Of a DNA stretch of 64,000 nucleotides, positions 4,901 to 57,144 are shown in pieces. The position numbers and the translations under genes are program-made. The stretch's first letter is position 1. Every line of letters begins with the position of its first letter. The notes beneath the pieces are model-generated. The model had not been told where the DNA came from. It ran no database searches and saw nothing but the letters and a program-made list of their open reading frames with translations. Source of the stretch: an uncultured Gammaproteobacteria bacterium (GTDB taxonomy: Bacteria; Patescibacteriota; Microgenomatia; Levybacterales; UBA12049); the NCBI GenBank assembly GCA_964507055.1, contig CAZDOJ010000003.1, positions 4,819 to 68,818 on the forward strand, read 5' to 3'.

Positions 4901-4963
4901 TGGCAGGATTCTTTTTACTAACTTGGACATCCTGCCTGGTGTCCAACTTTTGCTAGTATATAT

Positions 4964-4994
4964 ATTACTACATATATTAATTAGGCATGTCAAG
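4964..4994 (-). promoter_or_regulatory. Conserved promoter/operator-like element upstream of giant gene A. Read on the minus strand it contains TTGACA (4994..4989) followed by an AT-rich -10 region (ATTAATATATGTAGTAAT).
   Basis: 'attactacatatattaat[2nt]aggc[1nt]tgtcaag' is nearly identical at 4964-4994, 13794-13823 and 36007-36037. Each copy lies about 65-95 bp upstream of a giant-gene ATG and is followed by a conserved 'aatcttatc' box. Confidence 0.45.
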
Positions 4995-5603
4995 CACAAA
5001 TTAATCTTATCATAATTACATCAAAAATAACCATTTAGCCTTAAAAAATGAGCTGTCCAACTTTCTGCGAAACTCTAGTTTTGTAAGAAAATAAGTTAAT
5101 TTTCACAGCTTCAAAACTCTTATTAATTTTCACAAAATTTCTTTACCCCTTTTGATGCTTAATGATATTTTTTGTATTACTTAAAGAATTTTTATATTTT
5201 CTCTTCCTTTTGTACATTTCTCTTGAATAAAAATCTCAGCCTTAGAAAAAAATAGAGAGAGAAATAACTCGTAAGTATAGATAAAATTGCAATATATTTA
5301 TGTGTATCAAAAGGTAAACCTATGCATCAATGATAAATTTACTAACGAGACATGACTCTCACATGCGATTCACACATCTACAAGTATTTATAAAAACTAC
5401 CACTGATAAAAACTAACGACACAAGAACAACCACAAAGAGTCACCAGAAGTTGGAGAAGTCGATCTAAAGACTCTCTGGTGGAAGAGAAAGAGTATCCTT
5501 TACGTCAAAGTCGAAGTTAATCTATATAGTAAAAAAATGAGTATGGAAAATAAACCTAATTGAACATATTGGATAAGTTTGAAGAATTGCTATAGCAAGT
5601 TAG

Positions 5604-8600
5604 TTAATTAACAATCCACCAACTCAACCTCACATCAGTGGACTCTGCAGATCGTACCCGAATTTCAAATGTGTCAGCTGCAGTCTTCTTAACCGCAGTA
5701 GTCACTGGAATTTCTTCTGCTTGGACAAAGATCTTTGATTTATCGGACAGAGCAGAAGTCTTAACAATAACTTTTGTTTGCCCTTCCTTTAAGACAACTT
5801 CTCCTAAGGATGCACTTGCAACTTCTTCAGTATCGATATTGACCTTCTTCGCCGTAATCTCCCCTTCAGACTTCATGTTACCTTTATTATCGATTGTTAT
5901 CTTACCGTTGAGGATATCAATTCCGTTAAGACCATTTGATTGCAGTCGTAATGCTCCGACAGATGTGTTGATGGCAGCAGAACCTTCGTTATCAAGTCCT
6001 TCGATGCTAAGAAGCCCAACATTCACCTTTCCTGTGATACCTACGTCTGCAAGCGTTGTACGCCCTACAACAGCCAATGTATCAGTGACTGTGACTTTGT
6101 TAACATCAAGCTTCTCTAGATCAAGTTCTGCTGCAGATGAAGCAGTAAATCCTCCAGGTGCACTTGTCATGAAAGCTGAACTGCTCGCAGAATCCTCGAG
6201 TGTTGAAACTCGCGTAGTTAATGCTGCAAGCATGTCTTGGAGAACATTGGTCTTGCTCTTTACAGTAGTCAAAGCTGATGAGGTCGCCGTTCGTGCATTG
6301 AATGAATCATCAGAGATATTAGTGTTCTGGTTTTGAGCAAGTTGTGGATTAAATGGTTTACCATCAACTGAAATATTTCCATCTGAACTTAACGTGGCAC
6401 GTGGGTCGTACCATGATGGATTAACCAATGCAACAACTTTACCCACTGCACGAGGATCAGGATTATTGTATGATTCAACAGCCTTTGCGATTGTAGTACC
6501 AGCTTGTGTAGCCTTCATAGCAACCCCCGGAATACTACTCGAAGTAAGGTAATCACCAGGTTTGATTGGACCATTTTCGGTACTAACCTTTGTAGGAATT
6601 CTTCCAGCAAGTGCAATTGGATACTTCTTATCATTACCAAATCGTCTCTCTTCATCACCGAATCCTCCCAAAAGGATACCTGGCTTTGTAGAAACGATAC
6701 CGAGGATACTTCCCTGATAAGAATTCTCTGAGCGTTTGACGTATTCTGTATTATTTGGATCAGCAATAACAAGATCTCCTGGCTCCAATGTATTGTCTTT
6801 TGATGGATAATTCTCAGCTAAATCGATTGCGGTAACTGTACTGGATTCTGCATAGATACGTCCTGCTAGTCGTGAAGCATCATCACAATTACTTCCTCCA
6901 TCATCAACACAAAGTGCACCATTACCGACATGAAGAGAACCATCTGGCAGATTTGTAAAATTATTTGTGCCCAAACCAAACGATGCCGCACCAGTAAGGG
7001 TTGCCAATGTTACCGTCGCAGCTCCATTATTTTCAAATACAAATCCCGCATTAGCATCATAGACTTTCAAATAAACATTCTCTGCAGTTCCAGCATTGTA
7101 TTGAGAGAATAAGATACCTCCACCAATATTTGCACCATATATATTTGGATTTTGGATATAATTTAATGAAGATATTCCTCGTACATCGAAATCATAATTA
7201 GGATCCGTAAGTCCAATACCAACTCTTCCGCCTCCTCGTTGTAAAATAAGATCATCGTAAACCCCACCAATAATGGATGCAATATCATTGTAACCTCCGC
7301 CTGTTCTGTTTGTGCCAAATGCCAGATAATTCAGTGAGCCAGGTCCATCAGTGAATAGTACAGAATCTCCACTTGTATTTCCTGCAACATACAAAGGATT
7401 TCCTGGATTGGTTACTCCCCCAATACCTACATTTCCGCTATTCGTAATCACGAATTTGGTAGCCCCACTCTTTGAGGCGGTAAAGAGATCTCCGACGCCA
7501 TTATTATCGACCATGAAAGCGGCTTTTGCAGTACTCGCTGATATCGAAGCTGCCGGAGCGGTTCCGCTAGTACCAAAGATACTCAATGCTCCATTTATTG
7601 TTTGTTCCCCGTTAACTGATAATCCATTCCACATTTGAGCATTTCCTGCGACAGTGAGACTGCCATTACTAAAGATATTTCCGGCAAAAACACTTCCGCC
7701 TACAGCTCCATTGCCAACCATACCTGAAGCTGATGCGATATTGCCTCCAGATAATCCGATGAGGTCAAGATTTGCGTTCATTGAAATTCTTGCTGTACTT
7801 GCATAGTAGACAGTGCTTTGAATACCACTAGTACCACTTGTGGTTGTAGAGCCTCCCACTACATACATATATCCGTTTTCGATAACACCATTCTTCGAGA
7901 TGTTCCCACGAACTCCAGGAATTAAGTATTGATTGGTTGCCCATGTTCCTACAGTTCCATTGTCATTCAATTTTGCAAAGAAAACTTCATCTTGAGCATT
8001 ACTTGTATCATCTCCTCCCATCGCATAGACATAACCATTTGCCACAACTGATGAATGACCTACTCTTGCGGCTGGCATTCCATTGGTTGAAGTCCATGAA
8101 CCGACAGAACCATCACCATTTAGCTTTGCAAAATAAACATTTGTTGTACCGCCACTTGCATTACCTCCGATCATGTAGACATATCCATTAGCGACAACTG
8201 ATGTATGACCTCGAGTTGCTGCTGGAAGGTTGGTACCATTGGTCGTCCATGCTCCAATTGATCCATCTGAATTAATCTTTGCATAGTAAATGCTATTGAT
8301 ATTGTTATTGATAACATTGTTTGATCCTCCAAGCATATACAAGTATCCATTGGCGACAACTGAAGATTGGGATTGAATAGCCTGAGGCAAGTTGGTTGCA
8401 GTCTGCCATGATCCAAGTGTTCCATCAGTATTAAGTCGTGCATAGTACACTTTATTTTGAAGCGTAATAGAAACCTGTCCACCAGCAACATACACATAGC
8501 CGTTATAAACCACTGCAGTTGCATTACTCAAACTTGTTGGAAGCGAAGACGTGGTTCTCCAGTCTCCTACAGAACCATCTGCATTTAATGCCGCATAATA

Positions 8601-11600: not shown

Positions 11601-13724
11601 CCCCGCAAAGGTTGGAGATGCACCAGTATGAATATCCTGTGGCAAACTTAGCGTCACTCCGCCTGTACTTCCTGAGACATTGACTTGATTGGTTGTGCCA
11701 GTCAATGAAGTAACGCCATTATTTGTGAATGTAACAGCACCAGTGGAAGCGTTGATACCGATCCCTGATCCTGCGACTGCAGATGTCACGCCATTGTTGG
11801 TAATCGTTATATCTCCAGTTGCTGCATTGATTTGAATTCCTGATCCAGCAGTCGCAGAAGTAACTCCAGCATTTTGGAGTGAAACCGATCCTCCCAAACT
11901 TACCACTCCTCCACCAGACAAACCTGTCCCTGCTGTCACGGTCACCGATGAATTTGCAAGGTTTGCATTGGTGATTCCTGCGGATCCTGAGAGGTTAGAA
12001 TTGGTCAAACCTGTTATCGTGTTGGATCCTGCAGCAATGGTTTTATTGGTCAAGGTATCATTGCTATTTCTGCCAACCAATGTGTCATTTGCAGATGGAA
12101 AAGTAAATGCAGTCCCGTCAGTTCCAGAAAGCGTGAGAGAACTATTAAGCGTGATTGTCTTTCCAGTAGCAATGTTTAACGTGTTTGAGCCATTTGCAGT
12201 CACCGTCAAACCATTCAATGTCGTAGCAGTTAGAGCTGTAAATGCACCTGTGTTTGGTGTTGATGAACCGATTGCACCTGGTGCAATCCATGTCGCATTT
12301 TGCAAAGACGAAGCATTAATCGTACCACTCCCTGTGAAACCCAAACTCGCACCAGTTCCAACGATCATATTGGCTGTCGTGTTTGTTCCATCGGTAAGAA
12401 AATCAAATGGCAAATACCCAAGTACTGTTCCTGGTGCAACCCATTCTGGTGGCGTCCCAGGTCCTGTGGATTTGAGGATGAAACCATTTGCACCAGCGTT
12501 TGTGGATGTGGCGGTTGTTGCTGAAGTTGCATAAAGAACTCCATTAGTGGTCAATCCAGATAAGACTCCAGCAGCATTACTTGTGATTGTCACAGTCTTA
12601 TTTCCAGAGTCAGGAGACAATGTAATTCCTGCTCCTGCGGAAATGGTGAAAGTGTCAGTATTTGAACCTGCAGAAATATCCGTTGAGCCAACTCGGATTG
12701 TACCGAAAATCTTCTGAGCTGAGCCAGGATCAGTATTGGTGATGGTCAAGCCGGACAAACCAATACCTGAGCCGGATGAAAATGCTACGTCGCCATTTTC
12801 ACCTTGCAGAGAAAGCACACCGGTATTGGCAATTTCCAAACCTTCCAAATCAATTCCATTTCCTGATGTGAAAGCGATTGTACCAGTCAAGCCCTGAACA
12901 GAATTAACTCCGCCAAGGGCTGCGATAACCGGATTCTGAGGATCGCCAGTGATTGAGATATTTGTACCGGCAAGTACTGAATAGACTATGTTTGATGCAA
13001 TTACTCGACCAGTTCCAGCGTCAATGTCTTTGTTATTTGTTTTAATTCCTCCAAACAAATTCGATGCTTCGTTAACCGTCAAACTATTCTTGATCTCAAA
13101 AGCATCGAGAAAGGTCACTTTCTTGGTAAACAGAGCTGGCACGCCGATCTGCAGTTGCATCGCAGAGATCCTATCTTCTGCGGCCAAGACACTTTGTCCA
13201 CCGACTTGCTCTACTTTTTCACCTGGTTTAAGAAACGAGATAAATGCTTGTCTTTTTTCATCAAGCCCTTGTGCATTGGAGAATCCTATAACTATTAATG
13301 TCGTCAGAAGAAGTAATGCTATCACTGCACCGAAGGTCATGACCGCTTGAGGCTTGTGAAGTTTTGGCTCAGGCTTTTGGGAATGATGCAGTGGAGCTGC
13401 TGAAGTTTCTGTATGAACCGGCGTTGATTGAATAGGCATTGGAGTTGGCTGGGAGATTGATGCTTTCTGAGGAACGTGCTGCGGTTGCGATTGGAATCCA
13501 AAAGGCTTTGCAGTAGAAGCAGGCTCTGAAACTTGGACATCAGCCTCATCATCTTTTACAGCAGCTCCAAGTAATTGAGATAATTGGGCTTTACTGTAAC
13601 GACGCTGATTACCGAAAGTCCTATGCGAAGTAAGATAACCCTTTTCCTCCCATCGACGAAGAGTCCTCGTCGAAACGCGGAAAAAAGTTGCAGCTTCTTG
13701 AATTGTTAGATACTCGTTGTTCAT
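5604..13724 (-). CDS. Giant repetitive surface protein, paralog B (2706 aa). N-terminal excisionase-type HTH, linker, TM, repeat ectodomain. Near the C-terminus is a roughly 120-aa domain homologous to the ectodomain of the 37333-38103 protein, then a 265-aa tail.
   Basis: Complete ORF in the track. N-terminus 'MNNEYLTIQEAATFFRVSTRTLRRWEEKGYLTSHRTFGNQRRYS', TM 'AVMTFGAVIALLLLTTLIVIGF'. Long internal repeats ('LTTVGALASGSIANGFGTILTANTIQGSNITASGTTGFTGSG...LPVGNGGTG') occur at least twice. The ATG at 13724 was checked in the sequence. Confidence 0.9.
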   Translation of the reverse strand: MNNEYLTIQEAATFFRVSTRTLRRWEEKGYLTSHRTFGNQRRYSKAQLSQLLGAAVKDDEADVQVSEPASTAKPFGFQSQPQHVPQKASISQPTPMPIQSTPVHTETSAAPLHHSQKPEPKLHKPQAVMTFGAVIALLLLTTLIVIGFSNAQGLDEKRQAFISFLKPGEKVEQVGGQSVLAAEDRISAMQLQIGVPALFTKKVTFLDAFEIKNSLTVNEASNLFGGIKTNNKDIDAGTGRVIASNIVYSVLAGTNISITGDPQNPVIAALGGVNSVQGLTGTIAFTSGNGIDLEGLEIANTGVLSLQGENGDVAFSSGSGIGLSGLTITNTDPGSAQKIFGTIRVGSTDISAGSNTDTFTISAGAGITLSPDSGNKTVTITSNAAGVLSGLTTNGVLYATSATTATSTNAGANGFILKSTGPGTPPEWVAPGTVLGYLPFDFLTDGTNTTANMIVGTGASLGFTGSGTINASSLQNATWIAPGAIGSSTPNTGAFTALTATTLNGLTVTANGSNTLNIATGKTITLNSSLTLSGTDGTAFTFPSANDTLVGRNSNDTLTNKTIAAGSNTITGLTNSNLSGSAGITNANLANSSVTVTAGTGLSGGGVVSLGGSVSLQNAGVTSATAGSGIQINAATGDITITNNGVTSAVAGSGIGINASTGAVTFTNNGVTSLTGTTNQVNVSGSTGGVTLSLPQDIHTGASPTFAGMTLASFVTDGGLLYANGSGSFAQSSTLFAGVNGLGVGSNAIGNGKLVINQQNASGDIFSASSSGTTRLTLSNNGNLNLTGGAYQSNGISGITQGSASCVTTTNGIVTGFGTCQLGSEQWEINNGAIYTGNMSLDLLLGGSSTGSAKFAVTNISGGTPTASISANSGNNAAYLAGNGVLGTTNAQTLTVGSASTGNVVIDAGSGSIILSDATTVNGGVNLSLGNGYSINGTSVLNASTLGSGVTASSLTSVGALASGSIANGFGTILTANTIQGSNITASGTTGFTGSGAGAGMTFSGSGNHDVTASLGTLRFGAATLTGAITGNSQSITGLNNFSAAGTITLGGLTTGIVKSNGSGVLSSSAVGLNTGDVTGTLAVGNGGTGTASTPTNGQLLIGNGTGYTLAGLTNGTAISISNGAGTITINNTGVTSAVAGSGIGVSGATGAVTISNSGVLSLTGTTNQVNISGSTGAVTLSLPQNIHSGASPTFAGLTLSGFTSNGGILYTNGSGILAQTSVGGLGQCLMSNGGGTPTWGTCAGGTNLWQSNNGTVSPFSNTLDLLVGGTSTTSAKFRFINTNSGTPTASISANSGNNAAYLDGTGVLGTTNAQTLTLGSSTTGNVVIDSGSGLITLSDNTTVAGNLNLQTGNAFQINSTNVLTNNTLGSGVTTSSLTTVGALASGSIASGFGTILTANTIQGSNITASGTTGFTGSGVGAGLTFSGSGNHDITASLGTLRFGAATLTGAITGNSQNLTGLANLGATGTITFGGLTTGVVQSNGSGVLSSSALNLAGGASLITGTLPIGNGGTGTASTATNGQLLIGNGSGYTLAGLTQGTAISISNGAGAITINNTGVTSITGTTNQVNASGSTGAVTLSLPQNIHSGASPTFAGLTLSGLTNCDTIDTNGSGVLSCGTDAGATNYWQSNNGAVSPSNSTNDFLIGGTATASARFSVTGMATTLGGVSSFSTANSLPAGRTFNGVVAANGYIYSIGGYNGGGQSTAYYAALNADGSVGDWRTTSSLPTSLSNATAVVYNGYVYVAGGQVSITLQNKVYYARLNTDGTLGSWQTATNLPQAIQSQSSVVANGYLYMLGGSNNVINNNINSIYYAKINSDGSIGAWTTNGTNLPAATRGHTSVVANGYVYMIGGNASGGTTNVYFAKLNGDGSVGSWTSTNGMPAARVGHSSVVANGYVYAMGGDDTSNAQDEVFFAKLNDNGTVGTWATNQYLIPGVRGNISKNGVIENGYMYVVGGSTTTSGTSGIQSTVYYASTARISMNANLDLIGLSGGNIASASGMVGNGAVGGSVFAGNIFSNGSLTVAGNAQMWNGLSVNGEQTINGALSIFGTSGTAPAASISASTAKAAFMVDNNGVGDLFTASKSGATKFVITNSGNVGIGGVTNPGNPLYVAGNTSGDSVLFTDGPGSLNYLAFGTNRTGGGYNDIASIIGGVYDDLILQRGGGRVGIGLTDPNYDFDVRGISSLNYIQNPNIYGANIGGGILFSQYNAGTAENVYLKVYDANAGFVFENNGAATVTLATLTGAASFGLGTNNFTNLPDGSLHVGNGALCVDDGGSNCDDASRLAGRIYAESSTVTAIDLAENYPSKDNTLEPGDLVIADPNNTEYVKRSENSYQGSILGIVSTKPGILLGGFGDEERRFGNDKKYPIALAGRIPTKVSTENGPIKPGDYLTSSSIPGVAMKATQAGTTIAKAVESYNNPDPRAVGKVVALVNPSWYDPRATLSSDGNISVDGKPFNPQLAQNQNTNISDDSFNARTATSSALTTVKSKTNVLQDMLAALTTRVSTLEDSASSSAFMTSAPGGFTASSAAELDLEKLDVNKVTVTDTLAVVGRTTLADVGITGKVNVGLLSIEGLDNEGSAAINTSVGALRLQSNGLNGIDILNGKITIDNKGNMKSEGEITAKKVNIDTEEVASASLGEVVLKEGQTKVIVKTSALSDKSKIFVQAEEIPVTTAVKKTAADTFEIRVRSAESTDVRLSWWIVN

Positions 13725-13793
13725 TGGGCAGTAATGAAATTGAGCTCAAATACTAGACTTTGTCACCTTTTGTCCAATATTTTCACATAATAT

Positions 13794-13823
13794 AATTACT
13801 ACATATATTAATAAGGCTGTCAA
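13794..13823 (-). promoter_or_regulatory. Conserved promoter/operator-like element upstream of giant gene B (same motif as 4964-4994 and 36007-36037)
   Basis: The sequence is 'attactacatatattaataaggctgtcaagg'. The reverse complement gives TTGACA plus an AT-rich -10 region oriented toward the ATG at 13724. Confidence 0.45.
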
Positions 13824-14123
13824 GGATGAGAATAATCTTATCGTATACTTATCATACTTTATCGATTGTGCTCGACAATTTCGTGAAAAGTTTCGGGGAA
13901 TTATTGATGAGAGAATCCAGTAAATTCTAATAATCTTATACGTGCGATTTTGGAGAATTTCATTAGTTGCAAAAACGTGTTTTTAGAAATTGAGTCAGTT
14001 TAAAAAAAGTCTTATAATAATCATTATCCGTCAGGGACAGAGATATATCCTTCCCTTTTTACGAAAAAATTAAAGATATCAATAGTTATATTAATGCATC
14101 AAAGTGGTGGTCTATTCTTTGTT

Positions 14124-14657
14124 CTATTGAGGAATTAATTTGTTAAGAGCATCTTGTTCTGCGGCTGCTGATGCAATCTCGATATCTGGTTCTGTAGAAG
14201 CTGATGTTGTCCCCGCAACTGCTGAGGATTCAAATGGAATTGATGTAGGCTCTAGATAATTGAGTTTGGACTTACTGATAATTTTTTTTAATGATGGTCT
14301 ATATAAATAGACTTCTTTACTCTTTTTGTAAAGGAGAATCTTATCTCCGTTCTCTGCCTTTTTAAAGAAAGGTTGTGTATCGAGTGATTGCTTATCTGAA
14401 ACTGTTGCCACAGTTGGGACTTCATCTTTTGGAAGTGCCAATTGTTTCTTTGCATTGCCCATCATCTCATTCCAATCTTCTTCGTATGTCTTTGCCTCTC
14501 TCTGAAACACTGCTTCAGGGCTATGAAAGTACTGCCAATAACGGAAACCACCATAACTGCCCACGAGAACTCCTGCAACAATTCCAACAGCAATGAGTGT
14601 CGATGCAACTGGATGATTCTTATGAAATGTTTTAATTTTTTGCATGGCACTTAGCAT
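14124..14657 (-). CDS. Hypothetical membrane-anchored protein (N-terminal TM helix, Lys-rich extracytoplasmic part)
   Basis: ORF of 177 aa with one hydrophobic helix ('VASTLIAVGIVAGVLVGSYGG') near the N-terminus. It sits 103 bp downstream of the M23 gene, on the same strand, inside the giant-gene cluster. Confidence 0.5.
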   Translation of the reverse strand: MLSAMQKIKTFHKNHPVASTLIAVGIVAGVLVGSYGGFRYWQYFHSPEAVFQREAKTYEEDWNEMMGNAKKQLALPKDEVPTVATVSDKQSLDTQPFFKKAENGDKILLYKKSKEVYLYRPSLKKIISKSKLNYLEPTSIPFESSAVAGTTSASTEPDIEIASAAAEQDALNKLIPQ

Positions 14658-14760
14658 AAAATAAAGCGAGTAAAATGTAAAGAAATCTCAATACTCATCT
14701 TTGCATAAAACCCTTTGCCATTTCGCATTTGATGACCTTTGGCGACATGTGTAAAAATGC

Positions 14761-19002: not shown

Positions 19003-19069
19003 CCCTCCTTATATTCATAGTAAATCAATTCCTGTACAGTTGCAAATTAGACGCTATACTCCCCTGGTA

Positions 19070-34000: not shown

Positions 34001-35941
34001 AACAGTTAAAAGCCCTTCCGGGCTTGTGGTGCCTATACCAACTCTTCCATTGTCGTATATGCTCGAGTCAGATATCCCACTCGAACTCGTAAACTTGGCT
34101 ATGTAATTGGTGGTACCGGAACCGGAAATGCCTCCTCCTCCACCTCCACTACAATTTCCCGAAGTCAAACAAACAGTTCCACTTGCATCAGGGAAGGTAT
34201 ACGTTCGACCGGTTGTTAGTGGATCCATACTGATTGTTCCAGTCAAGCCAGATCCAAATACAATCTGATTCGCACTATTGGTCAAGTTCAAAGTTGCAAA
34301 AGTTGGTGAAGCTGCAGTATGAATATCCTGTGGTGTAGAGAATGTAATCGAACCAGCACCGTTGCTTATAGTAATTTGATTGACCGTACCTGTCAGGTTG
34401 CCCAATGTATAGTCAGTTCCATTTCCTATAAGAAGTTGGCCATTTGTAGGTATTGAGGCTAACCCTGTTCCTCCGTTTGCTACAGGGAGAACGCCAGTTA
34501 CTTCAAGAGCTCCGCCTGATAAGTTCAACGCACTTGTTGAGAGCAAACCATTACTGTCAGCCTTTACGATACCTGTACTCAAACCGGAAACAGTCAAACT
34601 ACCTGAGAATCTTCCATTACCTGTGACATCCAAAGTAGCACCAGGTGCTGTGTTTCCTATGCCTACATTACCGAGGTTGTAATATATATCGGATCCTGTA
34701 GTTGTCCACTGACTTGTGGCTGACCCATTCGCTGAAATAGTCAAAGTTTTGTCTGTAGTATTTGTGCTGAGCGTAATTCCGCTTCCAGCAGCGAAATTAA
34801 ATGTGTCTGTATTCGAACCAGCGGAGACTGGAGTGCCATCGATATTGAACGTGCTAAATATCTTTTGTCCTGAACCAGGATCGCTGTTGGTTATAGTAAG
34901 ATTATTAAGCGTAATTCCAGCTCCCTGAGTAAAGTTAAGAGCTCCTGTCTGACCCTGAAGCGAAAGTACACCAGTGTTGGTGATAGTTAATCCATCAAGT
35001 CCTATTCCTGATCCCTGAGCTAAAGCTACTTCGCCTGTTTGACCTTGGAATGATCTGACTAACCCACTACCCAAGTTAGCTGAGATTGTAGGATTCTGGG
35101 GATCACCCGTGACTGAAATGTTTGTACCAGCAAGAACAGAATAGACCACGTTTGATGCTGTCAATCGACCTGTGCCCGCATCAATATCAGAATTATTTGT
35201 AACGATGCCTCCACTTGTTGTGGCAATCCCATCAACAGTCAAGCCTTTGCGTATACCAACGCTATCAAGAAAAGTCGCCTGCTTCCCAAAGACAGAAGGG
35301 ATATTCACCCTGAGCACAAAGACCGGAGTATTATCATTTGCTGCTAATACCTCCCGAGCACTTGCACCTTCACGCAGTAATCCTTTCCCAAATCTATCTA
35401 AACTTTCTCCCCAGGTAGGAGCCAAATTCGCAACGAGGACAAATCCTACAAACAGAACTAAGACAGCAAACACGCCAGCCATGGGCGAAACATCTTTCAT
35501 ATCCCGAAGTCTTGATGGCATCTTATATCCACCAAATACATCTTGTCTCGGCTGACTAACTAGATCAGAAACTTGGACATTAGCTTCGGTTTGAGTTTGA
35601 GGCACGACTACGGGGTTAGTTGGAGTTTGTGGGGCTGTAAGCTTTTCGATTGAAGCCTCGGCCTCATGTGTTGGAGTAACAATTGGTTCCTCACTTTGAA
35701 CTGGCTCTGAAGCGACTACAACCGGTGCTGCAGGAGTTGTAGTTGAGCTTGCTGGGGCTGATTGAACAGGCTTGAATCCGTTTTGCTTGAAAGCAAGAAG
35801 TTGCTCCTTCGAATACCTTCGCTGGTTACCAGCGGTTCGATAAGGCAGAAGAACCTTTCGTTCCTCCCAGCGGCGAAGCGTTGTAGGAGAAACTCCTAAA
35901 AGCGTCGCTGCTTCTTGTATTGTGAGCAGTGATTCGTTCAT
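19070..35941 (-). CDS. Giant repetitive surface protein, paralog C (about 5623 aa; the track ORF extends to 35968, but the paralog-consistent ATG is at 35941). Excisionase-type HTH, linker, TM, then an ectodomain built from several long, internally duplicated repeat families.
   Basis: Complete 16.9-kb ORF. 'MNESLLTIQEAATLLGVSPTTLRRWEERKVLLPYRTAGNQRRYS' aligns with the A and B N-termini. TM 'MAGVFAVLVLFVGFVLVANLA'. The repeats include a roughly 693-aa unit duplicated in tandem, 3+ copies of a 'GC.ND.ILKWND..K.W.C..DAGG...' module, and 8+ copies of '..NYWN.ANG.LSP.NST.D.LIGG.ASNSAKFAVLNVNSGTPTASVSA'. Confidence 0.9.
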   Translation of the reverse strand: MNESLLTIQEAATLLGVSPTTLRRWEERKVLLPYRTAGNQRRYSKEQLLAFKQNGFKPVQSAPASSTTTPAAPVVVASEPVQSEEPIVTPTHEAEASIEKLTAPQTPTNPVVVPQTQTEANVQVSDLVSQPRQDVFGGYKMPSRLRDMKDVSPMAGVFAVLVLFVGFVLVANLAPTWGESLDRFGKGLLREGASAREVLAANDNTPVFVLRVNIPSVFGKQATFLDSVGIRKGLTVDGIATTSGGIVTNNSDIDAGTGRLTASNVVYSVLAGTNISVTGDPQNPTISANLGSGLVRSFQGQTGEVALAQGSGIGLDGLTITNTGVLSLQGQTGALNFTQGAGITLNNLTITNSDPGSGQKIFSTFNIDGTPVSAGSNTDTFNFAAGSGITLSTNTTDKTLTISANGSATSQWTTTGSDIYYNLGNVGIGNTAPGATLDVTGNGRFSGSLTVSGLSTGIVKADSNGLLSTSALNLSGGALEVTGVLPVANGGTGLASIPTNGQLLIGNGTDYTLGNLTGTVNQITISNGAGSITFSTPQDIHTAASPTFATLNLTNSANQIVFGSGLTGTISMDPLTTGRTYTFPDASGTVCLTSGNCSGGGGGGISGSGTTNYIAKFTSSSGISDSSIYDNGRVGIGTTSPEGLLTVSGGPAGKALAVFNYTGSGQNILTASASGTTRLTLNSSGDLNIIGGSYQIGGTPVLTSTSLGSGVVSSSLTSVGALNSGSITSGFGNIDVGADAISGGDITSTGSVGFISTGNGAGLNFSGTGNHDVTASSGVLRLGAVTLTGALTGNGQNATGFNNLSASGTVTFGALGTGVVQSNGSGLLSSSALNLAGGTSYVTGVLPVTNGGTGLNSFNTGDLVYASAGNTLAALPIGTEGQVLAVSGAGTPTWISSGTLNYWQRGAGTLAPLNISDDLLVGGVATNSAKFQVFGISGNASTSGTFTFNTAGVIQSTNNQGLTIGGGTTGNITLSPQNGNGTVTSTGNLNLVSGKAYQINGSNVLTETTLGSGVTNSSLTSVGALSAGSITMGFGTINNNNTITGTTLNGTIGVNTGAGAGTQRIDTTGNLTNIGTTQFNGITYSWPGSAGSNNYVLTTDGSGDLTWNDPATLPGVGDITAIGDVISGAAFTAGGTQGTSLYFYDTDGRGQLTIANLTSPRTYTLPDASGEICLDSGNCAGAGGGIVGTGTAGQLAFFTDTGTISSETSGFAWDAINKKLGIGTDTPTGKLSVSGAAAGKALAIFDELGNQDIFSASASGITQLRLARNGDLAIEGMLSDLTQNALTVNDSLNLISGNMFQINGTSVLSASTLGSGVINSSLTSVGALTSGSIANGFGSIFTSNTIQGSDITASGTTGFTATGNGAGLTFSGSGNHSISASSGTLQIGAATLTGDLTGNSQSIVGVNNLSASGTITFGGLSTGIVKSNGSGVLSSSAVNLASGDITGTLATGNGGTGITSVGSAGGVAYSNGSTFAFTGVGSNGEVLISNGSGAPTWASPSSLGTNYWQRNAGLLAPLNIADDLAIGGTSTASAKFQIFGNTGNASTSGSLTFNAAGNIQTTNNQTLTVGGNSTGNIIFSPLNGAGTVLVNGTMNLASGNNYQINGINVLTATTLGTGVVNSSLTNVGALTGGSIANGFGTIATTSTITGTTINGTTGLNTGAGSGTQRVDTNGNLVNIGTTQFNGVTYTWPGSDGSSDYVLTTNSTGGLSWKNVTSVGGAGDITAIGDVISGAAFTAGGTQGTSLYFYDTDGRGQLTIANLTAPRTYTLPDESGEICLDSGNCAGSGGGLVGSGTAGQIAFFDGTGSLSSETSGFSWDALTKKLGIGTDTPTGKLTVSGAAAGKALAVFDETGNQDIITASASGTTQFVLSRNGNLAIEGQLSDLSQNTLTVNDNLNLTTGNEFQINGVSILSASTLGSSVINSSLTSVGALTSGSIASGFGSILTGSTIQGSDITASGTTGFTATGTGAGLTFSGSGNHIVSASSGTLQIGAATLTGAITGNSQSITGLNNLSAAGTITFGGLSTGIVKSNGSGVLSSSAVDLSSGDVTSTLPVGNGGTGQTSFTTNGVVYGNGASALSVTSAPTGGQVLLGNGSGVPTFTTISGGVTISNTGVATIALSSSGDTANTSSNSGLEFNTTDGLSLLRGCANDEILKWNDSTKAWVCATDAGGSGSAGTINVQNNDIGVGSNVDTVDFSTDFTVTASPSNEANVSIADDILDFSEFIDNMTLDAATSIATSNFNLTLGTNAGTGGVVVSPNAGGNSALIVNKQGTGDIFTASASGTTRLTLSNSGDLNITGGNYQIGGTTVLSSNTLGSGVTNSSLTTVGALNAGSITSGFGAIDTGADAISGGDITSTGTTGLAVTGNDADLLFSGTGNHLISASAGTLQLGAATLTGAITGNGQNITGLGNLSASGTVTFGGFTTDGGLLYTNGSGVVAQTAQGTAGQCLQSNGGGAPVWGSCAAGSINYWNQANGALSPMNSTVDFLIGGSASNSAKFAVLNVNSGTPTASVSAGATGATYLTAAGTLQTTNNQTLTIGGNTTGNILLAPLAGAGTVTSTGHLNLASGKEFQINGTSVLTGSTLGAGVVNSSLTSVGALASGSIANGFGSIFTSSTIQGTDITASGATGFTASGNDADLTFSGTGNHTITASGGTLQLGATTLIGAITGNSQNITGLNNLSAAGTITFSGLSTGIVKSNGSGVLSSSAIDLASGDVTGTLAVGNGGTGVTSVGSAGSVAYSNGSSYAFTGVGSNGQVLISNGSGAPSWTDAASVGTNYWQRIAGALSPLSITDDLLIGGTSTASAKFQVFSGTGNATTSGNLTFNGLGVIQTTNNNTLTLGGNTTGNIVLNPLNGSGNVRINGLANCDSIDTDASGNLICGSDAGGGGGAGIVNIQNNDSPVGSSVDTIDFSSDFLVTASPSTEANVSIADDIINFTEIADSLTLDAATSIALSNFDLTLGTNSGIGGIVVAPNAGGNSALIINKQGTGDIFTASAAGTTRFTLASNGNMTATGTLTGLTGLSSSGSITFANFTNNGGLLYTDGSGVVAQTTAGGSGQCLISNGGGAPTWGSCAGGLANYWNQANGVLTPVNSTVDFLIGGQASNSAKFAVLNVNSGTPIASVSAGSTGGISLAANGTIGTTDRQSLTIGNSTTGNVVLNGFGAGIVKTNASGVLSSSAIGLATADVTGTLPVANGGTGQTSFTTNGVVYGNGGSALSVTSAPTGGQVLLGNGSGVPTFTSISGGITLSNTGVATIALTSSGDTVNTSSNSGLEFSTANGLSILRGCNDGQILKWNDTTKVWACGSDAGGTGGPAGVVNVENNDSGVGTDVDTIDFGTDFLVTASPANEANVSIADDVINFTELADSLSLDAATQIALGGFNLTLGTNAGTGGVVVAPNAGGNSALIVNKQGTGDIFTASSSGTTRLTLSSNGDLNIVGGAYMIGGTSVLSSNTLGSGIINSSLTSVGALNAGSITSGFGAIDTGADNISGGNITATGTTGFTGSGNGAGLTFSGTGNHDISASGGVLRLGATTLTGAITGNGQNLTGLANLAASGSITFGGLTTDGGLLYTNGSGVVAQTAAGTGGQCLMSNGGGAPTWGNCTGGLANYWNQANGVITPMNSTVDFLVGGQASNSAKFAVLNVNTGTPTASVSAGSAGAAYLTAAGTLQTTANQTLTIGGNTTGNITLSPLAGAGIVNLTGSLNLASGKEFQINGASVLNATTLGSSVVTSSLTTVGALNAGSITSGFGSIDTGTDAISGGNITSTGTTGFTASGNGAGLAFSGTGNHDISASSGVLRLGATTLTGAITGNSQNITGVANLGTTGTVTFGSFTTDGGLLYTNGSGVVAQTAQGTSGQCLQSNAGGAPTWGSCTGSLANYWNQNNGALSAMNSTVDLLVGGQSSASAKFAILNVNSGTPTASVSAGSAGGASLTADGVLGTTARQSLTLGNSTTGNIVLNGFTAGVVKTNASGVLSSSAIGLATADVTGTLPVGNGGTGATTLTQGGVLYGNGTSPVAASAQGTAGQALLSGGTGAPTWTTGTLALAGNFSTSGANALTLTTTGATNVTLPTTGTLATLAGTETLSGKTLTAPRFVNGGFIADANGNEQLIFGTTASAINELTLTNAAAGGTVTLAATGGDSNIPFAIDAKGTGELRLNGTGTGNVLLGGGFGGTGCTVTNSTGAFACNGAVTGSNISGTTSGTNTGDQTITLTGDVTGSGTGSFATVIADNSVDGTDIALGSDATGDLMYYNGTDWVRLAAGTSTQLLHSGTTPSWGAVSLTADITGVLGSANGGTGANLSAANQGAVPYFSATGVMSALAPGTAGYVLTTNGAGQNPTWSNAAALGTNYWNLANGSLSPVNNTLDLLIGGQASNSAKFAVLNVNSGTPTASVSAGSAGAAYLTAAGALQTTVNQTLSLGGNTTGNIVLNSDGNNFVGIGTATPTNRLTVAGNIEALNGTQQSLLTDTGSIELARTSDDAFIDFKTSTAEDFDARIEGFGGGLAIRTGGSGTQQFVFENGGNLGIGTLDPTTNLHVVGGARITGLANCNTIDTDANGVLSCGTDESGGVQNFWNLNQGTLAPVNSTVDLLIGGTSSSSAKFAILNVNSGTPTASVSAGSAGGASLTATGVLGTTARQSLTLGNNTTGNIVLNGFTAGVVKTNASGVLSSSAIGLATADVTGTLPVGNGGTGATTLTQGGILYGNGTSPVAASAQGTSGQALLSGGTGAPTWTTGALALAGDFTTSGANALTLTTTGTTNVTLPTTGTLATLAGTETLSGKTLTAPRFVNGGFIADANGNEQLIFGTTASAINELTLTNAAAAGAVTLAATGGDSNIPFAIDAKGTGELRLNGTGTGNVLLGGGFGGTGCTVTNSNGNFACNGTLAGSNFSGSTSGTNTGDQTITLTGDVTGTGTGSFGTTIADNSVDGTDIALGSDATGDLMYYNGTDWTRLAAGTGNQLLHSGTTPSWGAVDLTTQITGTLPIANGGTNSTATPTNGGVAYGTGTAFAFTSAGTNGDCFKSNGAAAPTWGSCGGANYWNLANGAFSPVNSTADILIGGTASSSAKFAVLNMNSGTPTASVSATATGNGLSLGGDAVIQSLRNNTLTIGGNTTGNITLSPQAGSGTVTSTGNLNLSSGKEFQINGASILSASTLGSSVVTSSLTTVGVLNSGSINTGFGAIDVGSDNIAGGNITAAGTTGYASTGNGAGLTFSGTGNHDITASVGVLRLGALTLTGTITGNTQSITGLGQLTVDNLRLDNNTLDTTTGDLTLAPNGGDVIFNDATTLNIGGNASDVAYNIIGDTITGANGNMGSDDDLFIEGDLQTLGTIFGNVTGNLTGNVTGNTFTSSSGDITLNAAGSDIIIADNDTLNVGGYGGGSAFNVIGDSVVNNNTADGDNDLYIQDELEVDGIVTIGSTTNGIQFDPAAGPTYYGTARPVRKVTLSAEYPGAILTASNSGTTNGFMTSDASSSASQNLSNFMSYYEWNSSQTAIQDYTVAVRVTLPDDFAAWETSNALQIYYNTELTTNTGNKLDVRVYNSDISLSAAQASTPVAMRVNQTSASQRQWNVISIDDSELDAGNTRDLDAAGETAIIYLKLYSKDNNYTQVGDIVLNYRSNK
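20350..24500. repeat. Intragenic tandem duplication inside giant gene C, period 2079 bp (693 aa), two copies about 85-90 % identical. Boundaries are approximate.
   Basis: The antisense shadow ORFs 21159-21791 and 23217-23870 are about 88 % identical and offset by exactly 2079 bp. The sense-strand protein shows 'NYWQRGAGTLAPLNISDDL...' to 'NYWQRNAGLLAPLNIADDL...' as repeated units. Confidence 0.7.
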
Positions 35942-35968
35942 TGGGCAGCACCGGTAAGTTTTAAGCAC

Positions 35969-35983
35969 AAATGGATAAGTTTG
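35969..35983. repeat. 15-bp direct repeat 'AAATGGATAAGTTTG', copy 1 (copy 2 at 36088-36102). The two copies flank the conserved promoter element of giant gene C.
   Basis: Exact 15/15 match read directly in the sequence at 35969-35983 and 36088-36102. Confidence 0.6.
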
Positions 35984-36006
35984 CTTAACTTTTCACCAGT
36001 ATATTA

Positions 36007-36037
36007 ATTACTACATATATTAATATAGCTTGTCAAG
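36007..36037 (-). promoter_or_regulatory. Conserved promoter/operator-like element upstream of giant gene C (third copy of the motif)
   Basis: The sequence is 'aattactacatatattaatatagcttgtcaagg', followed by 'tattatcttatcttaatcttatc'. It has the same orientation and a similar distance to the ATG as at the other two giant genes. Confidence 0.45.
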
Positions 36038-36087
36038 GCTGAGTATTATCTTATCTTAATCTTATCATAATTCATCCTCTAGAAGCT

Positions 36088-36102
36088 AAATGGATAAGTT
36101 TG
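36088..36102. repeat. 15-bp direct repeat 'AAATGGATAAGTTTG', copy 2
   Basis: Exact match to 35969-35983. Confidence 0.6.
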
Positions 36103-36268
36103 TCTTTAGAAAAAAATCTACTGAGAAAAGATCAATTTCATGACAAAAAAAGTCCTGTGAAAACATCAAAAAATCAACTAATGTAATCGATATCATACTG
36201 ATGCTTTAAAAAATCATTTGAAGTTCTGATACCTTGACGGCTTTTGCAGATTTTGGTACTTTTTGCTT

Positions 36269-57095: not shown

Positions 57096-57144
57096 AGATT
57101 ACAAACTCTTTAGTAAAATGTAAAGAGATTAGTTTCTATTATTA

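What the first reader, a model, noticed from the sequence alone, without database searches (positions are those of the whole stretch)
4964..36037. Near-identical roughly 45-bp promoter/operator element upstream of all three giant genes
The motif 'AATTACTACATATATTAAT..AGGC.TGTCAAGG' plus a downstream 'AATCTTATC' box recurs at 4964-4994, 13794-13823 and 36007-36037. Each copy sits at a similar distance upstream of a giant-gene start. On the coding (minus) strand it reads CTTGACA, then about 17 nt, then an AT-rich -10. This conservation contrasts with the otherwise divergent AT-rich spacers. It is consistent with a shared strong promoter and possibly an operator bound by the proteins' own HTH domains (autoregulation).
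Basis: seen in the sequence. Interest (0 to 1): 0.7.

Follow-up and report, generated by a model that had tools for sequence, protein, structure and literature searches.

The report
Conserved promoter-operator of giant surface-protein genes
The repeated 45-bp motif is real: it is the core of a deeply conserved control region found only in front of giant membrane-anchored surface-protein genes of uncultured Microgenomates (CPR) bacteria, and each of those proteins starts with a BldC-like DNA-binding domain that probably binds the repeat arrays flanking its own promoter.

Summary
Observation confirmed. The 18-mer ATTAATATATGTAGTAAT (coding strand) occurs exactly three times in the window. Each copy lies 5-6 nt after CTTGACA and 63-70 nt before the ATG of a giant gene.

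It is not a generic promoter. In a metagenome-wide scan, 11 of 12 hits precede a homologous gene; the twelfth contig ends first. The motif is absent elsewhere in about 1 Mb of related genomes.

Selection is strong. Across 21 distinct loci, four-fold degenerate sites are saturated (37% identity), yet TTGACA and the 18-mer are invariant.

The element is the centre of a larger module:
- 2-3 GATAAGATTA repeats with an 11-bp period, upstream of the -35.
- CTTGACA, then N12/13, TRTG, N3, TAAT. TTGACA to TAAT is always 19-20 bp.
- AAnTTGGACA direct repeats with a 10-bp period, from about the transcription start to +30.
- CTGCC(C) abutting the ATG, with no Shine-Dalgarno.

The proteins' N-terminus is a BldC-like winged helix (47% identity, rmsd 1.8 A). 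A disordered linker and a single transmembrane helix follow. BldC binds direct repeats head-to-tail.

Verdict: a factor-dependent promoter with operators. Autoregulation by the proteins' own HTH is plausible (about 0.5) but unproven, and the likelier HTH targets are the flanking repeat arrays. "Strong promoter" is not supported, because the -10 is non-canonical in either register.

The parts
4964..4981 (-). Copy 1: invariant 18-mer ATTAATATATGTAGTAAT (promoter spacer plus TAAT of the -10 region)
   Evidence: invariant in 21 distinct loci
4988..4994 (-). Copy 1: CTTGACA, -35 element
   Evidence: CTTGACA present in 62/76 family loci
5002..5022 (-).
   Evidence: 11-bp spacing in 21/22 adjacent pairs family-wide
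5054..5062 (-). Copy 1: upstream AGTTGGACA box (about 60 nt upstream of the -35); AGGCTAA box at 5035-5041
4920..4948 (-). Copy 1 leader: AGTTGGACA direct box, loop CCAGGCAGGA, TGTCCAAGTT inverted box. The loop GGCAGGAT (4936-4929) can pair with ATCCTGCC (4909-4902) next to the ATG
4898..4906 (-). Copy 1: CTGCCAATG, start-proximal CTGCC motif plus the start codon of giant gene 1 (the gene runs off the left end of the window)
13795..13812 (-). Copy 2: invariant 18-mer
13818..13824 (-). Copy 2: CTTGACA, -35 element
13833..13863 (-). Copy 2: three GATAAG-type direct repeats (10-11-bp period)
13771..13786 (-). Copy 2 leader: GTGAAAA followed by a TATTGGACA box
13722..13731 (-). Copy 2: CTGCCCAATG, start-proximal motif plus the start codon of giant gene 2 (13724-5604, 2706 aa)
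36007..36024 (-). Copy 3: invariant 18-mer
36031..36037 (-). Copy 3: CTTGACA, -35 element
36046..36076 (-). Copy 3: three GATAAG-type direct repeats (10-11-bp period)
35972..35990 (-). Copy 3 leader: variant boxes AGTTAAGCA and ACTTATCCA in place of TTGGACA. The same ACTTATCCA recurs upstream at 36091-36099
35939..35948 (-). Copy 3: CTGCCCAATG, start-proximal motif plus the start codon of giant gene 3 (35941-19070, about 5620 aa)
13560..13724 (-). BldC-like MerR-type winged HTH (aa 1-55) of giant 2. Equivalent domains are at 4736-4900 (giant 1) and 35777-35941 (giant 3)
   Evidence: Pfam MerR/HTH_17; BldC best PDB hit by sequence and by fold
13287..13343 (-). Single transmembrane helix of giant 2 (aa 128-146). 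Equivalents are at 4310-4366 (giant 1, aa 179-197) and 35420-35476 (giant 3, aa 156-174)
   Evidence: hydropathy scan

Best explanation
The roughly 45-bp element is the core of a family-specific, factor-dependent sigma-70-type promoter. It drives genes for giant surface proteins of Levybacteria/Microgenomates (CPR). These proteins have the architecture BldC-like wHTH, disordered linker, one TM helix, giant ectodomain.

Anatomy (shown):
- CTTGACA as the -35.
- A fixed spacing to TRTG-N3-TAAT. This gives 19-20 bp to TAATnn, or 17-18 bp to a TGn-NNTAAT hexamer that lacks A at -11.
- The core sits between two helically phased direct-repeat arrays: GATAAGATTA x2-3 (11-bp period, immediately upstream of the -35) and AAnTTGGACA x2-6 (10-bp period, from about the transcription start to +30). 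Extra boxes lie 60-90 bp upstream, and often an inverted box follows downstream.

Mechanism (inferred): the cytoplasmic N-terminal domain of the encoded protein, still tethered to the membrane or released from it, binds these direct repeats as head-to-tail multimers, as BldC does. Binding bends the DNA and controls initiation at its own intrinsically sub-optimal promoter. The invariant spacer (the 18-mer in the Levybacteria clade) is an additional operator read by the same domain or by another factor.

Confidence by layer:
- Family-specific promoter plus operator module: about 0.85.
- Autoregulation by the gene's own HTH: about 0.5.
- Sign of regulation (repression by boxes over the start site, or MerR-like activation through a long spacer): undetermined.
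For: (1) Specificity.
- There are 3/3 copies in the window.
- All 12 metagenome hits to TTGACA-N6-9-TTAATATATGTAGTAAT are in homologous loci. In 11, a homologous HTH gene starts 42-73 nt downstream. The twelfth contig (L015) ends 34 nt after the motif but has the same divergent neighbour gene.
- Four loci found by protein homology alone all carry the motif.
- There are no copies in front of other genes in 1.02 Mb of related loci, and none in viral contigs.

(2) Selection. Across 21 distinct loci, 4-fold-site identity is 0.37, yet TTGACA and the 18-mer are 100% identical. The 5-6 nt between them vary freely.

(3) Geometry. In 46/46 unique loci TTGACA to TAAT is 19 or 20 bp. The -11 base is never A in the 17/18-bp register.

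(4) Internal control. The divergent promoter in the same loci is canonical (TTGACT-17-TGn-TAnnGT) and has a variable spacer.

(5) Flanking motifs. In the 250 nt upstream of HTH genes, TTGGACA is 32x enriched, GATAWGAT 40x and CTGCCC-ATG 72x. There are no clusters elsewhere. Positions are fixed. Periods are 10 bp (39 pairs) and 11 bp (21/22).

(6) DNA-binding domain.
- Pfam MerR/HTH_17 hits are above threshold in all three proteins.
- The best PDB hit by sequence is BldC (E 1.7e-5).
- The AF2 model's top seven fold hits are BldC chains (47% identity, rmsd 1.8 A).
- No long coiled coil follows the wing.
- BldC binds direct repeats head-to-tail with consensus AATTXXXX(C) (PMC5859096). AAGT-TGGA-C and AATC-TTAT-C both fit that consensus.

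(7) Topology. Each protein has one TM helix after a 70-120-aa P/S/E/Q-rich linker, which predicts a cytoplasmic HTH.

(8) Co-inheritance and co-variation. Boxes travel with the HTH gene even where TTGACA or the 18-mer are lost (L023, L030, L045). The only two recognition-helix variants among 76 loci (window copy 3 SPT, L008 SIK..TLHRW) are both among the 3 loci without canonical boxes.
Against: - There is no transcription-start, binding or expression data.
- The AATTXXXX(C) consensus is so loose that fits in AT-rich DNA are expected by chance.
- The co-variation signal rests on two loci and post-hoc categories.
- The -10 register is unresolved.
- The 18-mer does not change in window copy 3, whose HTH and boxes do change. 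The 18-mer may therefore be read by something other than the HTH.
- A conserved divergent 317-aa protein with a C-terminal wHTH is an alternative regulator in many loci.
- A membrane-tethered HTH at the end of a 5600-aa protein may serve another purpose, such as tethering DNA to the membrane.
- Part of the downstream conservation could act at the RNA level.
Confidence: 0.6

Rival explanations
1. The region is the same promoter/operator module, but the conserved elements are read by a separate trans-acting regulator. Candidates are the conserved divergent 317-319-aa protein with a C-terminal winged helix, a small stand-alone BldC-like protein, or a response regulator acting on the phased repeats. 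Under this view the giant proteins' HTH has a different job, such as anchoring the nucleoid to the envelope.
For: - The divergent 317-aa gene is syntenic in more than 10 loci, in the classical regulator-target arrangement.
- It has weak ArsR/DeoR-type wHTH hits.
- The 18-mer and the GATAAG repeats are unchanged in window copy 3, although its HTH and TTGGACA boxes changed.
- Direct repeats with a 10-11-bp period are also typical of OmpR/PhoB-type regulators (discussed in PMC5859096).
Against: - Copies 1 and 2, and their orthologues, have no adjacent regulator gene.
- The motifs are found only with the HTH genes. That is what a cis-element plus its own factor predicts, and it would be unusual for a general regulator.
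- The wHTH hits of the 317-aa protein are far below family thresholds.
Confidence: 0.25
2. The conservation downstream of the 18-mer (TTGGACA/TGTCCAA, CTGCCC) reflects a cis-regulatory 5'-leader RNA, and the DNA-level operator reading is wrong for that part. The leader would form a hairpin or pseudoknot that hides the start region, or would bind an RNA-binding protein through its repeated GGA motifs.
For: - The leaders fold better than shuffles (z -2.8 and -2.5 for copies 1 and 3).
- In the copy-1-type clade the hairpin loop GGCAGG pairs with CCUGCC next to the AUG. Two of 8 pairs covary in 6 sequences.
- Window copy 3 keeps a hairpin through compensated arm changes.
Against: - Boxes also occur upstream of the -35, in either orientation.
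- Orthologous positions switch between direct (AGACA) and inverted (TGTCA) boxes, which destroys the hairpin in L003, L010, L016 and L020.
- The strict 10-bp periodicity of direct repeats is a DNA-helix property.
- No Rfam family matches.
- This reading does not explain the 18-mer or TTGACA.
Confidence: 0.1
3. The promoter is an invertible (phase-variable) segment flanked by TTGGACA/TGTCCAA inverted repeats, like fimS or the Bacteroides capsule promoters. Inversion would switch giant surface proteins on and off.
For: - Inverted box pairs bracket the promoter in some loci: window copy 1 (5054-5062 versus 4920-4929), and L064, L070 and L086.
- Surface-protein genes are classic phase-variation targets (general knowledge).
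Against: - All of about 90 loci from independent assemblies have the promoter pointing at the gene, and no inverted copy was found.
- Many loci have only direct repeats.
- No recombinase gene is seen next to the loci.
Confidence: 0.03
4. The conserved core is a promoter for the opposite (+) strand. The + strand reads TTCACA/TTGCTA/TTCACC, then 16-18 nt, then TATATT, and would fire away from the giant genes (antisense or small RNA).
For: The consensus scan scores these + strand sites at 9-10 of 12 matches in all three window copies.
Against: - The + strand -35-like hexamers are not conserved in related loci (there they read TGTCCA and similar).
- No conserved feature lies downstream on that strand for copies 1 and 2.
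- The divergent gene in copy-3-type loci has its own canonical promoter about 100 nt away.
- The total number of promoter-like sites found by the scan is at the level seen in shuffled sequence.
Confidence: 0.02

Closest known systems
BldC family (Streptomyces BldC; PDB 6AMA/6AMK; PMC5859096)
   Same: - The N-terminal 55 aa is a MerR-like winged HTH. It is 46-48% identical to BldC and superposes at rmsd 1.8 A.
- No coiled-coil dimerisation helix follows.
- Base-contacting Lys26 and Arg30 equivalents are conserved (K/R in 75/76 loci, R in 76/76).
- The gene's own control region carries head-to-tail direct repeats with 10-11-bp periods that fit AATTXXXX(C).
   Different: - BldC is a free 68-aa protein with a developmental regulon. 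Here the domain is fused through a disordered linker and a TM helix to ectodomains of 1,600 to more than 5,600 aa.
- The wing residue His46 is Gln here.
- DNA binding was not tested.
MerR-type promoters (merT, copA, zntA, bmr, soxS: 19-20-bp spacers activated by DNA distortion)
   Same: - The -35 is consensus, with a fixed 19-20 bp to the conserved TAAT.
- The regulator-type domain belongs to the MerR superfamily.
- The spacer sequence is conserved, as an operator would be.
   Different: - No coiled-coil MerR dimer is present.
- No centred dyad is conserved across clades (the 18-mer is only a 7/9 pseudo-palindrome and sits off-centre).
- The -7 position is usually A.
- An alternative 17/18-bp register with TGn exists.
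Membrane-bound one-component transcription factors (ToxR, TcpP, CadC)
   Same: A cytoplasmic N-terminal winged-helix DNA-binding domain, a single TM helix and an extracytoplasmic C-terminal part. Such factors can regulate from the membrane.
   Different: - ToxR-like proteins use OmpR-type wHTH domains and small periplasmic sensor domains.
- Here the domain is BldC/MerR-type and the ectodomain is a giant repetitive surface filament.
- The only predicted target is the gene's own promoter.
Excisionase/RDF winged-helix proteins (lambda Xis, Tn916 Xis, Pukovnik Xis, RdfS)
   Same: The fold superfamily is the same (Pfam HTH_17; Pukovnik Xis is fold hit 9). These proteins also polymerise cooperatively on phased direct repeats.
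   Different: No integrase or attachment-site context is present. The loci are chromosomal, syntenic and next to the ATP-synthase operon.

Membership tests
Sigma-70-type promoter | -35 hexamer close to TTGACA | tested here: met
   TTGACA is exact in all 3 window copies and CTTGACA is present in 62/76 family loci.
Sigma-70-type promoter | -10 hexamer TAnnnT with A at -11 and T at -7, 17 +/- 1 bp from the -35 | tested here: not met
   At 17/18 bp the hexamer is (A/C)(G/T/C)TAAT and is never A at -11. TAATnn lies at 19/20 bp, with A at -7 in about 70% of loci.
Sigma-70-type promoter | Experimentally mapped transcription start | not testable with these tools
   No transcript data are available. 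The predicted starts are about 4954-4958, 13785-13789 and 35997-36001.
MerR-type (long-spacer) promoter | 19-20-bp spacer between the -35 and -10 | tested here: inconclusive
   The spacer is 19 bp (30 loci) or 20 bp (16 loci) if the -10 is TAATnn. The register is not established.
MerR-type (long-spacer) promoter | Dyad-symmetric operator centred in the spacer, bound by a coiled-coil MerR dimer | tested here: not met
   The 18-mer is only 7/9 self-complementary and off-centre. Other clades carry GTGAAA.TATGTCG instead. No coiled coil follows the wing.
BldC family | MerR-like wHTH fold with closest similarity to BldC | tested here: met
   phmmer E 1.7e-5 to 6AMA/6AMK. The Foldseek top 7 hits are BldC chains, 47% identity, rmsd 1.8 A.
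BldC family | Lacks the coiled-coil dimerisation and effector domains of classical MerR proteins | tested here: met
   The AF2 model shows a 13-residue helix (aa 45-57) followed by low-confidence disorder. The linker is P/S/E/Q-rich.
BldC family | Small stand-alone protein (about 68 aa) | tested here: not met
   The domain is fused to a linker, a TM helix and a giant ectodomain (2706 and about 5620 aa).
BldC family | Binds DNA direct repeats as head-to-tail multimers | not testable with these tools
   The data are only consistent with this. There are 10-bp and 11-bp phased direct-repeat arrays at the gene's own promoter.
ToxR/CadC-like membrane-bound transcription factors | Cytoplasmic N-terminal DNA-binding domain plus a single TM helix plus an extracytoplasmic domain | tested here: met
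   There is one hydrophobic segment per protein after the HTH and linker, with slightly positive N-side flanks. The topology is predicted, not shown.
ToxR/CadC-like membrane-bound transcription factors | OmpR-type winged-helix DNA-binding domain | tested here: not met
   The domain is MerR/HTH_17 (BldC-like), not Trans_reg_C.
Invertible promoter switch (fimS-like) | Both orientations are found in populations, with a recombinase nearby | tested here: not met
   Zero inverted copies in about 90 loci. No recombinase is seen in the flanks examined. Read-level data were not available.
Known RNA families (Rfam 15) | Match at the gathering threshold | tested here: not met
   There are no hits in the whole window at gathering thresholds. 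Only chance-level hits (E above 1) occur around copies 1 and 3.

The most novel reading that the evidence does not exclude
Giant surface proteins of Microgenomates would be membrane-tethered BldC-type transcription factors.
- The N-terminal domain emerges first from the ribosome, while the 8-17-kb gene is still being transcribed.
- It polymerises in cis on the direct repeats of its own promoter. This throttles re-initiation and tethers the locus to the membrane for co-translational export.
- Alternatively, it is released or repositioned when the extracellular filament engages a host cell. That would give a Notch-like surface-to-gene signalling route in ultra-small episymbiotic bacteria.
Probability: 0.25. 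Interest if true: 0.85.

Novelty: new variant of a known kind. Interest (0 to 1): 0.62.

Why it matters
Almost nothing is known about promoters, operators or gene regulation in CPR/Patescibacteria, because most of these bacteria are uncultured. This study delivers three things.
- A precisely delimited cis-regulatory module under very strong purifying selection.
- Its exclusive association with one gene family.
- A concrete candidate DNA-binding domain, 60 aa long and easy to express, with a solved homologue.

The hypothesis can therefore be tested in vitro without culturing the organism.

If the giant envelope proteins (probable host-attachment or cell-wall-active filaments) do regulate their own genes through a cytoplasmic BldC-like head, that would be a new architecture for bacterial transmembrane signalling. 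It would also extend the BldC family beyond small soluble regulators.

Tried and rejected
- Generic promoter or chance: rejected.
- Known RNA family: no Rfam hit.
- Phage or mobile origin: no hit in viral contigs, and the loci are syntenic next to the atp operon.
- Invertible switch: no inverted copies found.
- + strand promoter: its -35 is not conserved outside the window.
- General start-region pairing: a partner for CTGCCC was sought in all leaders. Convincing pairing was found only in the copy-1-type clade.
- Classical MerR dyad: a dyad in the spacer would be needed. The 18-mer is a 7/9 pseudo-palindrome (chance about 0.03 by my own estimate) and is not conserved in other clades, so this was not pursued.
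- BldC consensus as a discriminator: matching AATTXXXX(C) to the GATAAG array, the TTGGACA array and the 18-mer gives fits everywhere, so the consensus is too loose to discriminate.
- Literature: four searches found no description of this family or motif. The first was wasted because the term 'merr' matched 'Merritt'.
Full report
**1. Observation**

The three claimed copies exist exactly where stated. The + strand 18-mer ATTACTACATATATTAAT occurs at 4964, 13795 and 36007 and nowhere else, even with three mismatches allowed (0.11 matches expected).

Read on the minus strand, which is the coding strand of the three giant genes, each copy has the same order of parts. First come GATAAGATTA-type repeats, then CTTGACA, then 5-6 variable nt, then ATTAATATATGTAGTAAT. 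The start codons follow at 4900, 13724 and 35941, which is 63-70 nt after the 18-mer.

**2. The genes and the organism**

All three ORFs begin with a MerR/HTH_17 helix-turn-helix that scores above the Pfam thresholds. A 70-120-aa linker rich in P, S, E and Q follows. Next comes the only strongly hydrophobic segment of the protein (aa 179-197, 128-146 and 156-174). After it come thousands of residues of internally repetitive sequence, with Kelch repeats in giant 2.

The neighbouring genes include an F-type ATP synthase, ArgRS, LeuRS and dockerin proteins. Homologues come from Levybacteria, Woesebacteria, Shapirobacteria and Amesbacteria, so this is a Microgenomates (CPR) genome. L057 (OZ246394.1) appears to be a close relative.

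**3. Is it a generic promoter? No**

- A scan of the metagenome collection for TTGACA-N6-9-TTAATATATGTAGTAAT returned 12 loci. In 11, a homologous HTH gene begins 42-73 nt downstream. The twelfth contig (L015) ends 34 nt after the motif, but it carries the same divergent neighbour gene.
- Four loci retrieved purely by protein similarity (33-41% identity over 300 aa) all carry the exact 18-mer.
- In 1.02 Mb around 80 HTH genes from GTDB species representatives, the 18-mer (up to 3 mismatches) occurs 13 times. Ten hits precede an HTH gene directly. An eleventh (L083) precedes one across an inserted 128-aa ORF. The other two are 3-mismatch hits away from any HTH gene start.
- There is no match in viral contigs.

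**4. Strength of selection**

Among 21 distinct loci with the exact 18-mer, identity at four-fold degenerate sites of the adjacent HTH codons is 0.37, which is saturated. The 5-6 nt between TTGACA and the 18-mer differ freely. Yet all 24 nt of TTGACA plus the 18-mer are identical in all 21 loci.

An internal control sits in the same loci. The divergently oriented promoter of the conserved 317-aa neighbour gene is a textbook TTGACT-17-TGn-TAnnGT promoter, and about half of its spacer positions are variable. The host polymerase therefore uses canonical promoters, and canonical spacers drift. The giant-gene spacer does not drift, which means something reads it sequence-specifically. It is an operator in the broad sense.

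**5. Promoter geometry**

Across 46 unique loci from several clades the invariant skeleton is TTGACA, N12/13, TRTG, N3, TAAT. The distance from TTGACA to TAAT is 19 bp in 30 loci and 20 bp in 16 loci. Two registers are possible.

- Register (i): a 17/18-bp spacer with a correctly placed TGn and the hexamer NNTAAT. This has canonical geometry, but A is never found at -11, the most critical -10 base.
- Register (ii): a 19/20-bp spacer and the hexamer TAATnn. T-12 and A-11 are invariant, but the spacer is over-long and -7 is mostly A. This is the hallmark geometry of MerR-type promoters.

In either register the promoter is intrinsically sub-optimal, and this sub-optimality is itself conserved. 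'Strong promoter' is therefore not supported, and 'factor-dependent promoter' is the better description.

The exact 18-mer is specific to the Levybacteria-like clade. Other clades have GTGAAA(A)TATGTCGTAAT or TTTTCACATATATGTAGTAAT at the same place.

**6. The element is the centre of a larger module**

Unbiased 7-mer enrichment in the 260 nt upstream of 76 unique HTH gene starts recovers several motifs. These are CTTGACA (62 loci), TTGGACA (52 loci, 81 copies), GATAAGA, GTGAAAA/TTTTCAC, GAGGCTA and TGTCCAA. Relative to the rest of 1.18 Mb, TTGGACA-type boxes are 32-fold enriched, GATAWGAT 40-fold and CTGCCC-N0-3-ATG 72-fold. No clusters lie away from HTH genes.

Anchored on TTGACA, positions are fixed:
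- GATAWGA at -40 to -11.
- GAGGCTA at -70 to -30.
- Direct boxes at +30 to +59, which is about the start site to +25, and again at -90 to -70.
- An inverted box at +60 to +69.
- CTGCC and the ATG at +80 to +100.

Adjacent direct boxes are 10 bp apart in 39 pairs and 12 bp apart in 10 pairs. GATAWGA units are 11 bp apart in 21 of 22 pairs. Some lineages carry 5-6 boxes in tandem (L019, L023, L030, L041, L045). One-helical-turn periodicity, occurrence on both sides of the promoter, and occurrence in either orientation all point to protein-DNA recognition.

**7. The DNA-binding domain**

The best solved relative of the N-terminal 60 aa is Streptomyces BldC (6AMA/6AMK, E 1.7e-5). It ranks ahead of CarH, SoxR and TnrA. 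An AlphaFold model has pLDDT of about 90 over residues 10-50. It shows strand-helix-helix-wing, then a 13-residue helix, then disorder. Its seven best PDB fold matches are BldC chains at 46-48% identity and rmsd 1.8 A. SoxR and the mycobacteriophage Pukovnik Xis follow.

BldC is a MerR-like wHTH without a coiled coil. It binds direct repeats as cooperative head-to-tail multimers, bends DNA strongly and recognises AATTXXXX(C) through Lys26, Arg30 and a wing His46 (PMC5859096). In the giant proteins the Lys26 equivalent is K or R in 75 of 76 loci. The Arg30 equivalent is invariant, and His46 is Gln.

The boxes AAGT-TGGA-C, the copy-3 variants AAGT-TAAG-C and AACT-TATC-C, and the complement of the GATAAG repeat (AATC-TTAT-C) all fit the BldC consensus. 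That consensus is loose, so the fits are weak evidence.

**8. Link between the HTH and the boxes**

- Boxes and HTH gene are co-inherited as a unit, even where the TTGACA/18-mer core is not recognisable.
- Only two of 76 loci vary in the recognition helix. Window copy 3 has SPT instead of S-T-K/R, and L008 has SIK..TLHRW. Both are among the three loci with no canonical box. Copy 3 has AGTTAAGCA/ACTTATCCA and L008 has AACCTAGACA-type boxes (P about 0.001, but the categories are post hoc).
- In copy 3 the new box also replaced the upstream box (36091-36099), so the two sides changed together.
- The 18-mer and GATAAG repeats of copy 3 did not change. The 18-mer may therefore be read by another factor, or by polymerase plus factor.

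**9. Mechanism proposed**

Shown: a conserved, family-specific promoter-like core with an operator-grade spacer. Phased direct repeats flank it, and it sits in front of genes whose products start with a BldC-like domain predicted to be cytoplasmic.

Inferred: that domain polymerises on the repeats and controls initiation at its own promoter. Boxes covering the start site suggest repression, and the long spacer suggests distortion-dependent activation. The sign cannot be decided here.

Because the domain is the first part translated from an 8-17-kb gene, binding in cis to the gene's own promoter during coupled transcription-translation is conceivable. This is speculative.

**10. Rivals**

- A separate regulator, for example the syntenic divergent 317-aa protein with a weak C-terminal wHTH, cannot be excluded (0.25).
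- An RNA-level role exists for part of the leader. In the copy-1-type clade the hairpin loop GGCAGG pairs with CCUGCC beside the AUG, with some covariation. Hairpins are not conserved across orthologues, however.
- Inversion switch, opposite-strand promoter, generic promoter and mobile-element end are each contradicted.

**11. Comparison with known systems and novelty**

The domain passes the fold and 'no coiled coil' criteria of the BldC family. It fails 'small stand-alone protein', and its DNA-binding mode is untested.

The promoter resembles MerR-type promoters in spacer length only. The overall protein logic resembles ToxR/CadC, but with a different DNA-binding fold and an enormous ectodomain.

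No paper in the searchable library describes the family or the motif.

I classify it as a new variant of known kinds: operator-controlled promoter, BldC-type binding and membrane-tethered regulator. Interest is 0.62.

Noticed in passing
window 4898-4906, 13722-13731, 35939-35948; most of L001-L096 at the HTH gene start: CTGCC(C) sits 0-3 nt before the ATG of nearly every gene of the family, in variable frame, with no Shine-Dalgarno. It is 72-fold enriched and occurs in the window only at these starts. Its partner is unknown. In the copy-1-type clade a leader hairpin loop (GGCAGG) pairs with it, as if it were a ribosome-binding signal being sequestered.
   Followed up: partly
window 36263-37222 (+); L003 37-990 and equivalents in L005-L016: A conserved 317-319-aa protein is transcribed divergently from copy-3-type giant genes and is followed by the ATP-synthase operon. 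It has only weak C-terminal ArsR/DeoR-like wHTH hits and no solved relative. Its promoter is a canonical TTGACT-17-TGn-TAnnGT.
   Followed up: partly
L083 9456-9997: A 128-aa ORF (MTKLVYPELSYKLRGILFDVHGELG...) is inserted between the promoter/boxes and the CTGCCC-ATG of the HTH gene, splitting the leader. The boxes stayed with the promoter and CTGCCC stayed with the start codon.
   Followed up: partly
window 14669-14683 and 57112-57126 (minus strand): An identical 15-mer TCTTTACATTTTACT lies 12-17 nt upstream of the ATGs of two unrelated ORFs, 14657-14124 and 57095-56448. Only 0.3 matches are expected by chance. It may be another shared promoter or leaderless-start signal.
   Followed up: no
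window 5100-5106, 5127-5133, 13883-13889, 36157-36163; spacers of L028, L029, L031, L039, L081 etc.: GTGAAAA/TTTTCAC boxes recur 60-170 nt upstream of the -35 in the window. In other clades they lie inside the promoter spacer, in either orientation.
   Followed up: partly
L003 1221-2024 and 2388-5024; L004 2600-3712 and 3720-6712: In some genomes the HTH-linker-TM module is a separate 267-370-aa ORF followed by a large ORF. This is either a real split or an assembly frameshift.
   Followed up: no
window 4995-5603 and 13825-14123: AT-rich non-coding stretches of 610 bp and 300 bp lie upstream of copies 1 and 2, without credible ORFs. The copy-1 orthologue L001 also has about 1.1 kb without ORFs of 70 aa or more upstream of its promoter.
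   Followed up: no
window 14761-19002 (-), 46085-48319 (-), 48431-49609 (-): A 1413-aa M23-peptidase/DUF2341/LamG protein lies directly downstream of giant 3. Two dockerin-bearing proteins, one with CBM_4_9, also occur in this CPR-like genome.
   Followed up: no
L019-L090 record titles: Many GTDB records carrying this Microgenomates-type locus are titled 'uncultured Gammaproteobacteria', 'Pseudomonadales', 'Nitrososphaera' or 'Acidiferrales'. These are apparently mislabelled or mis-binned MAGs.
   Followed up: no
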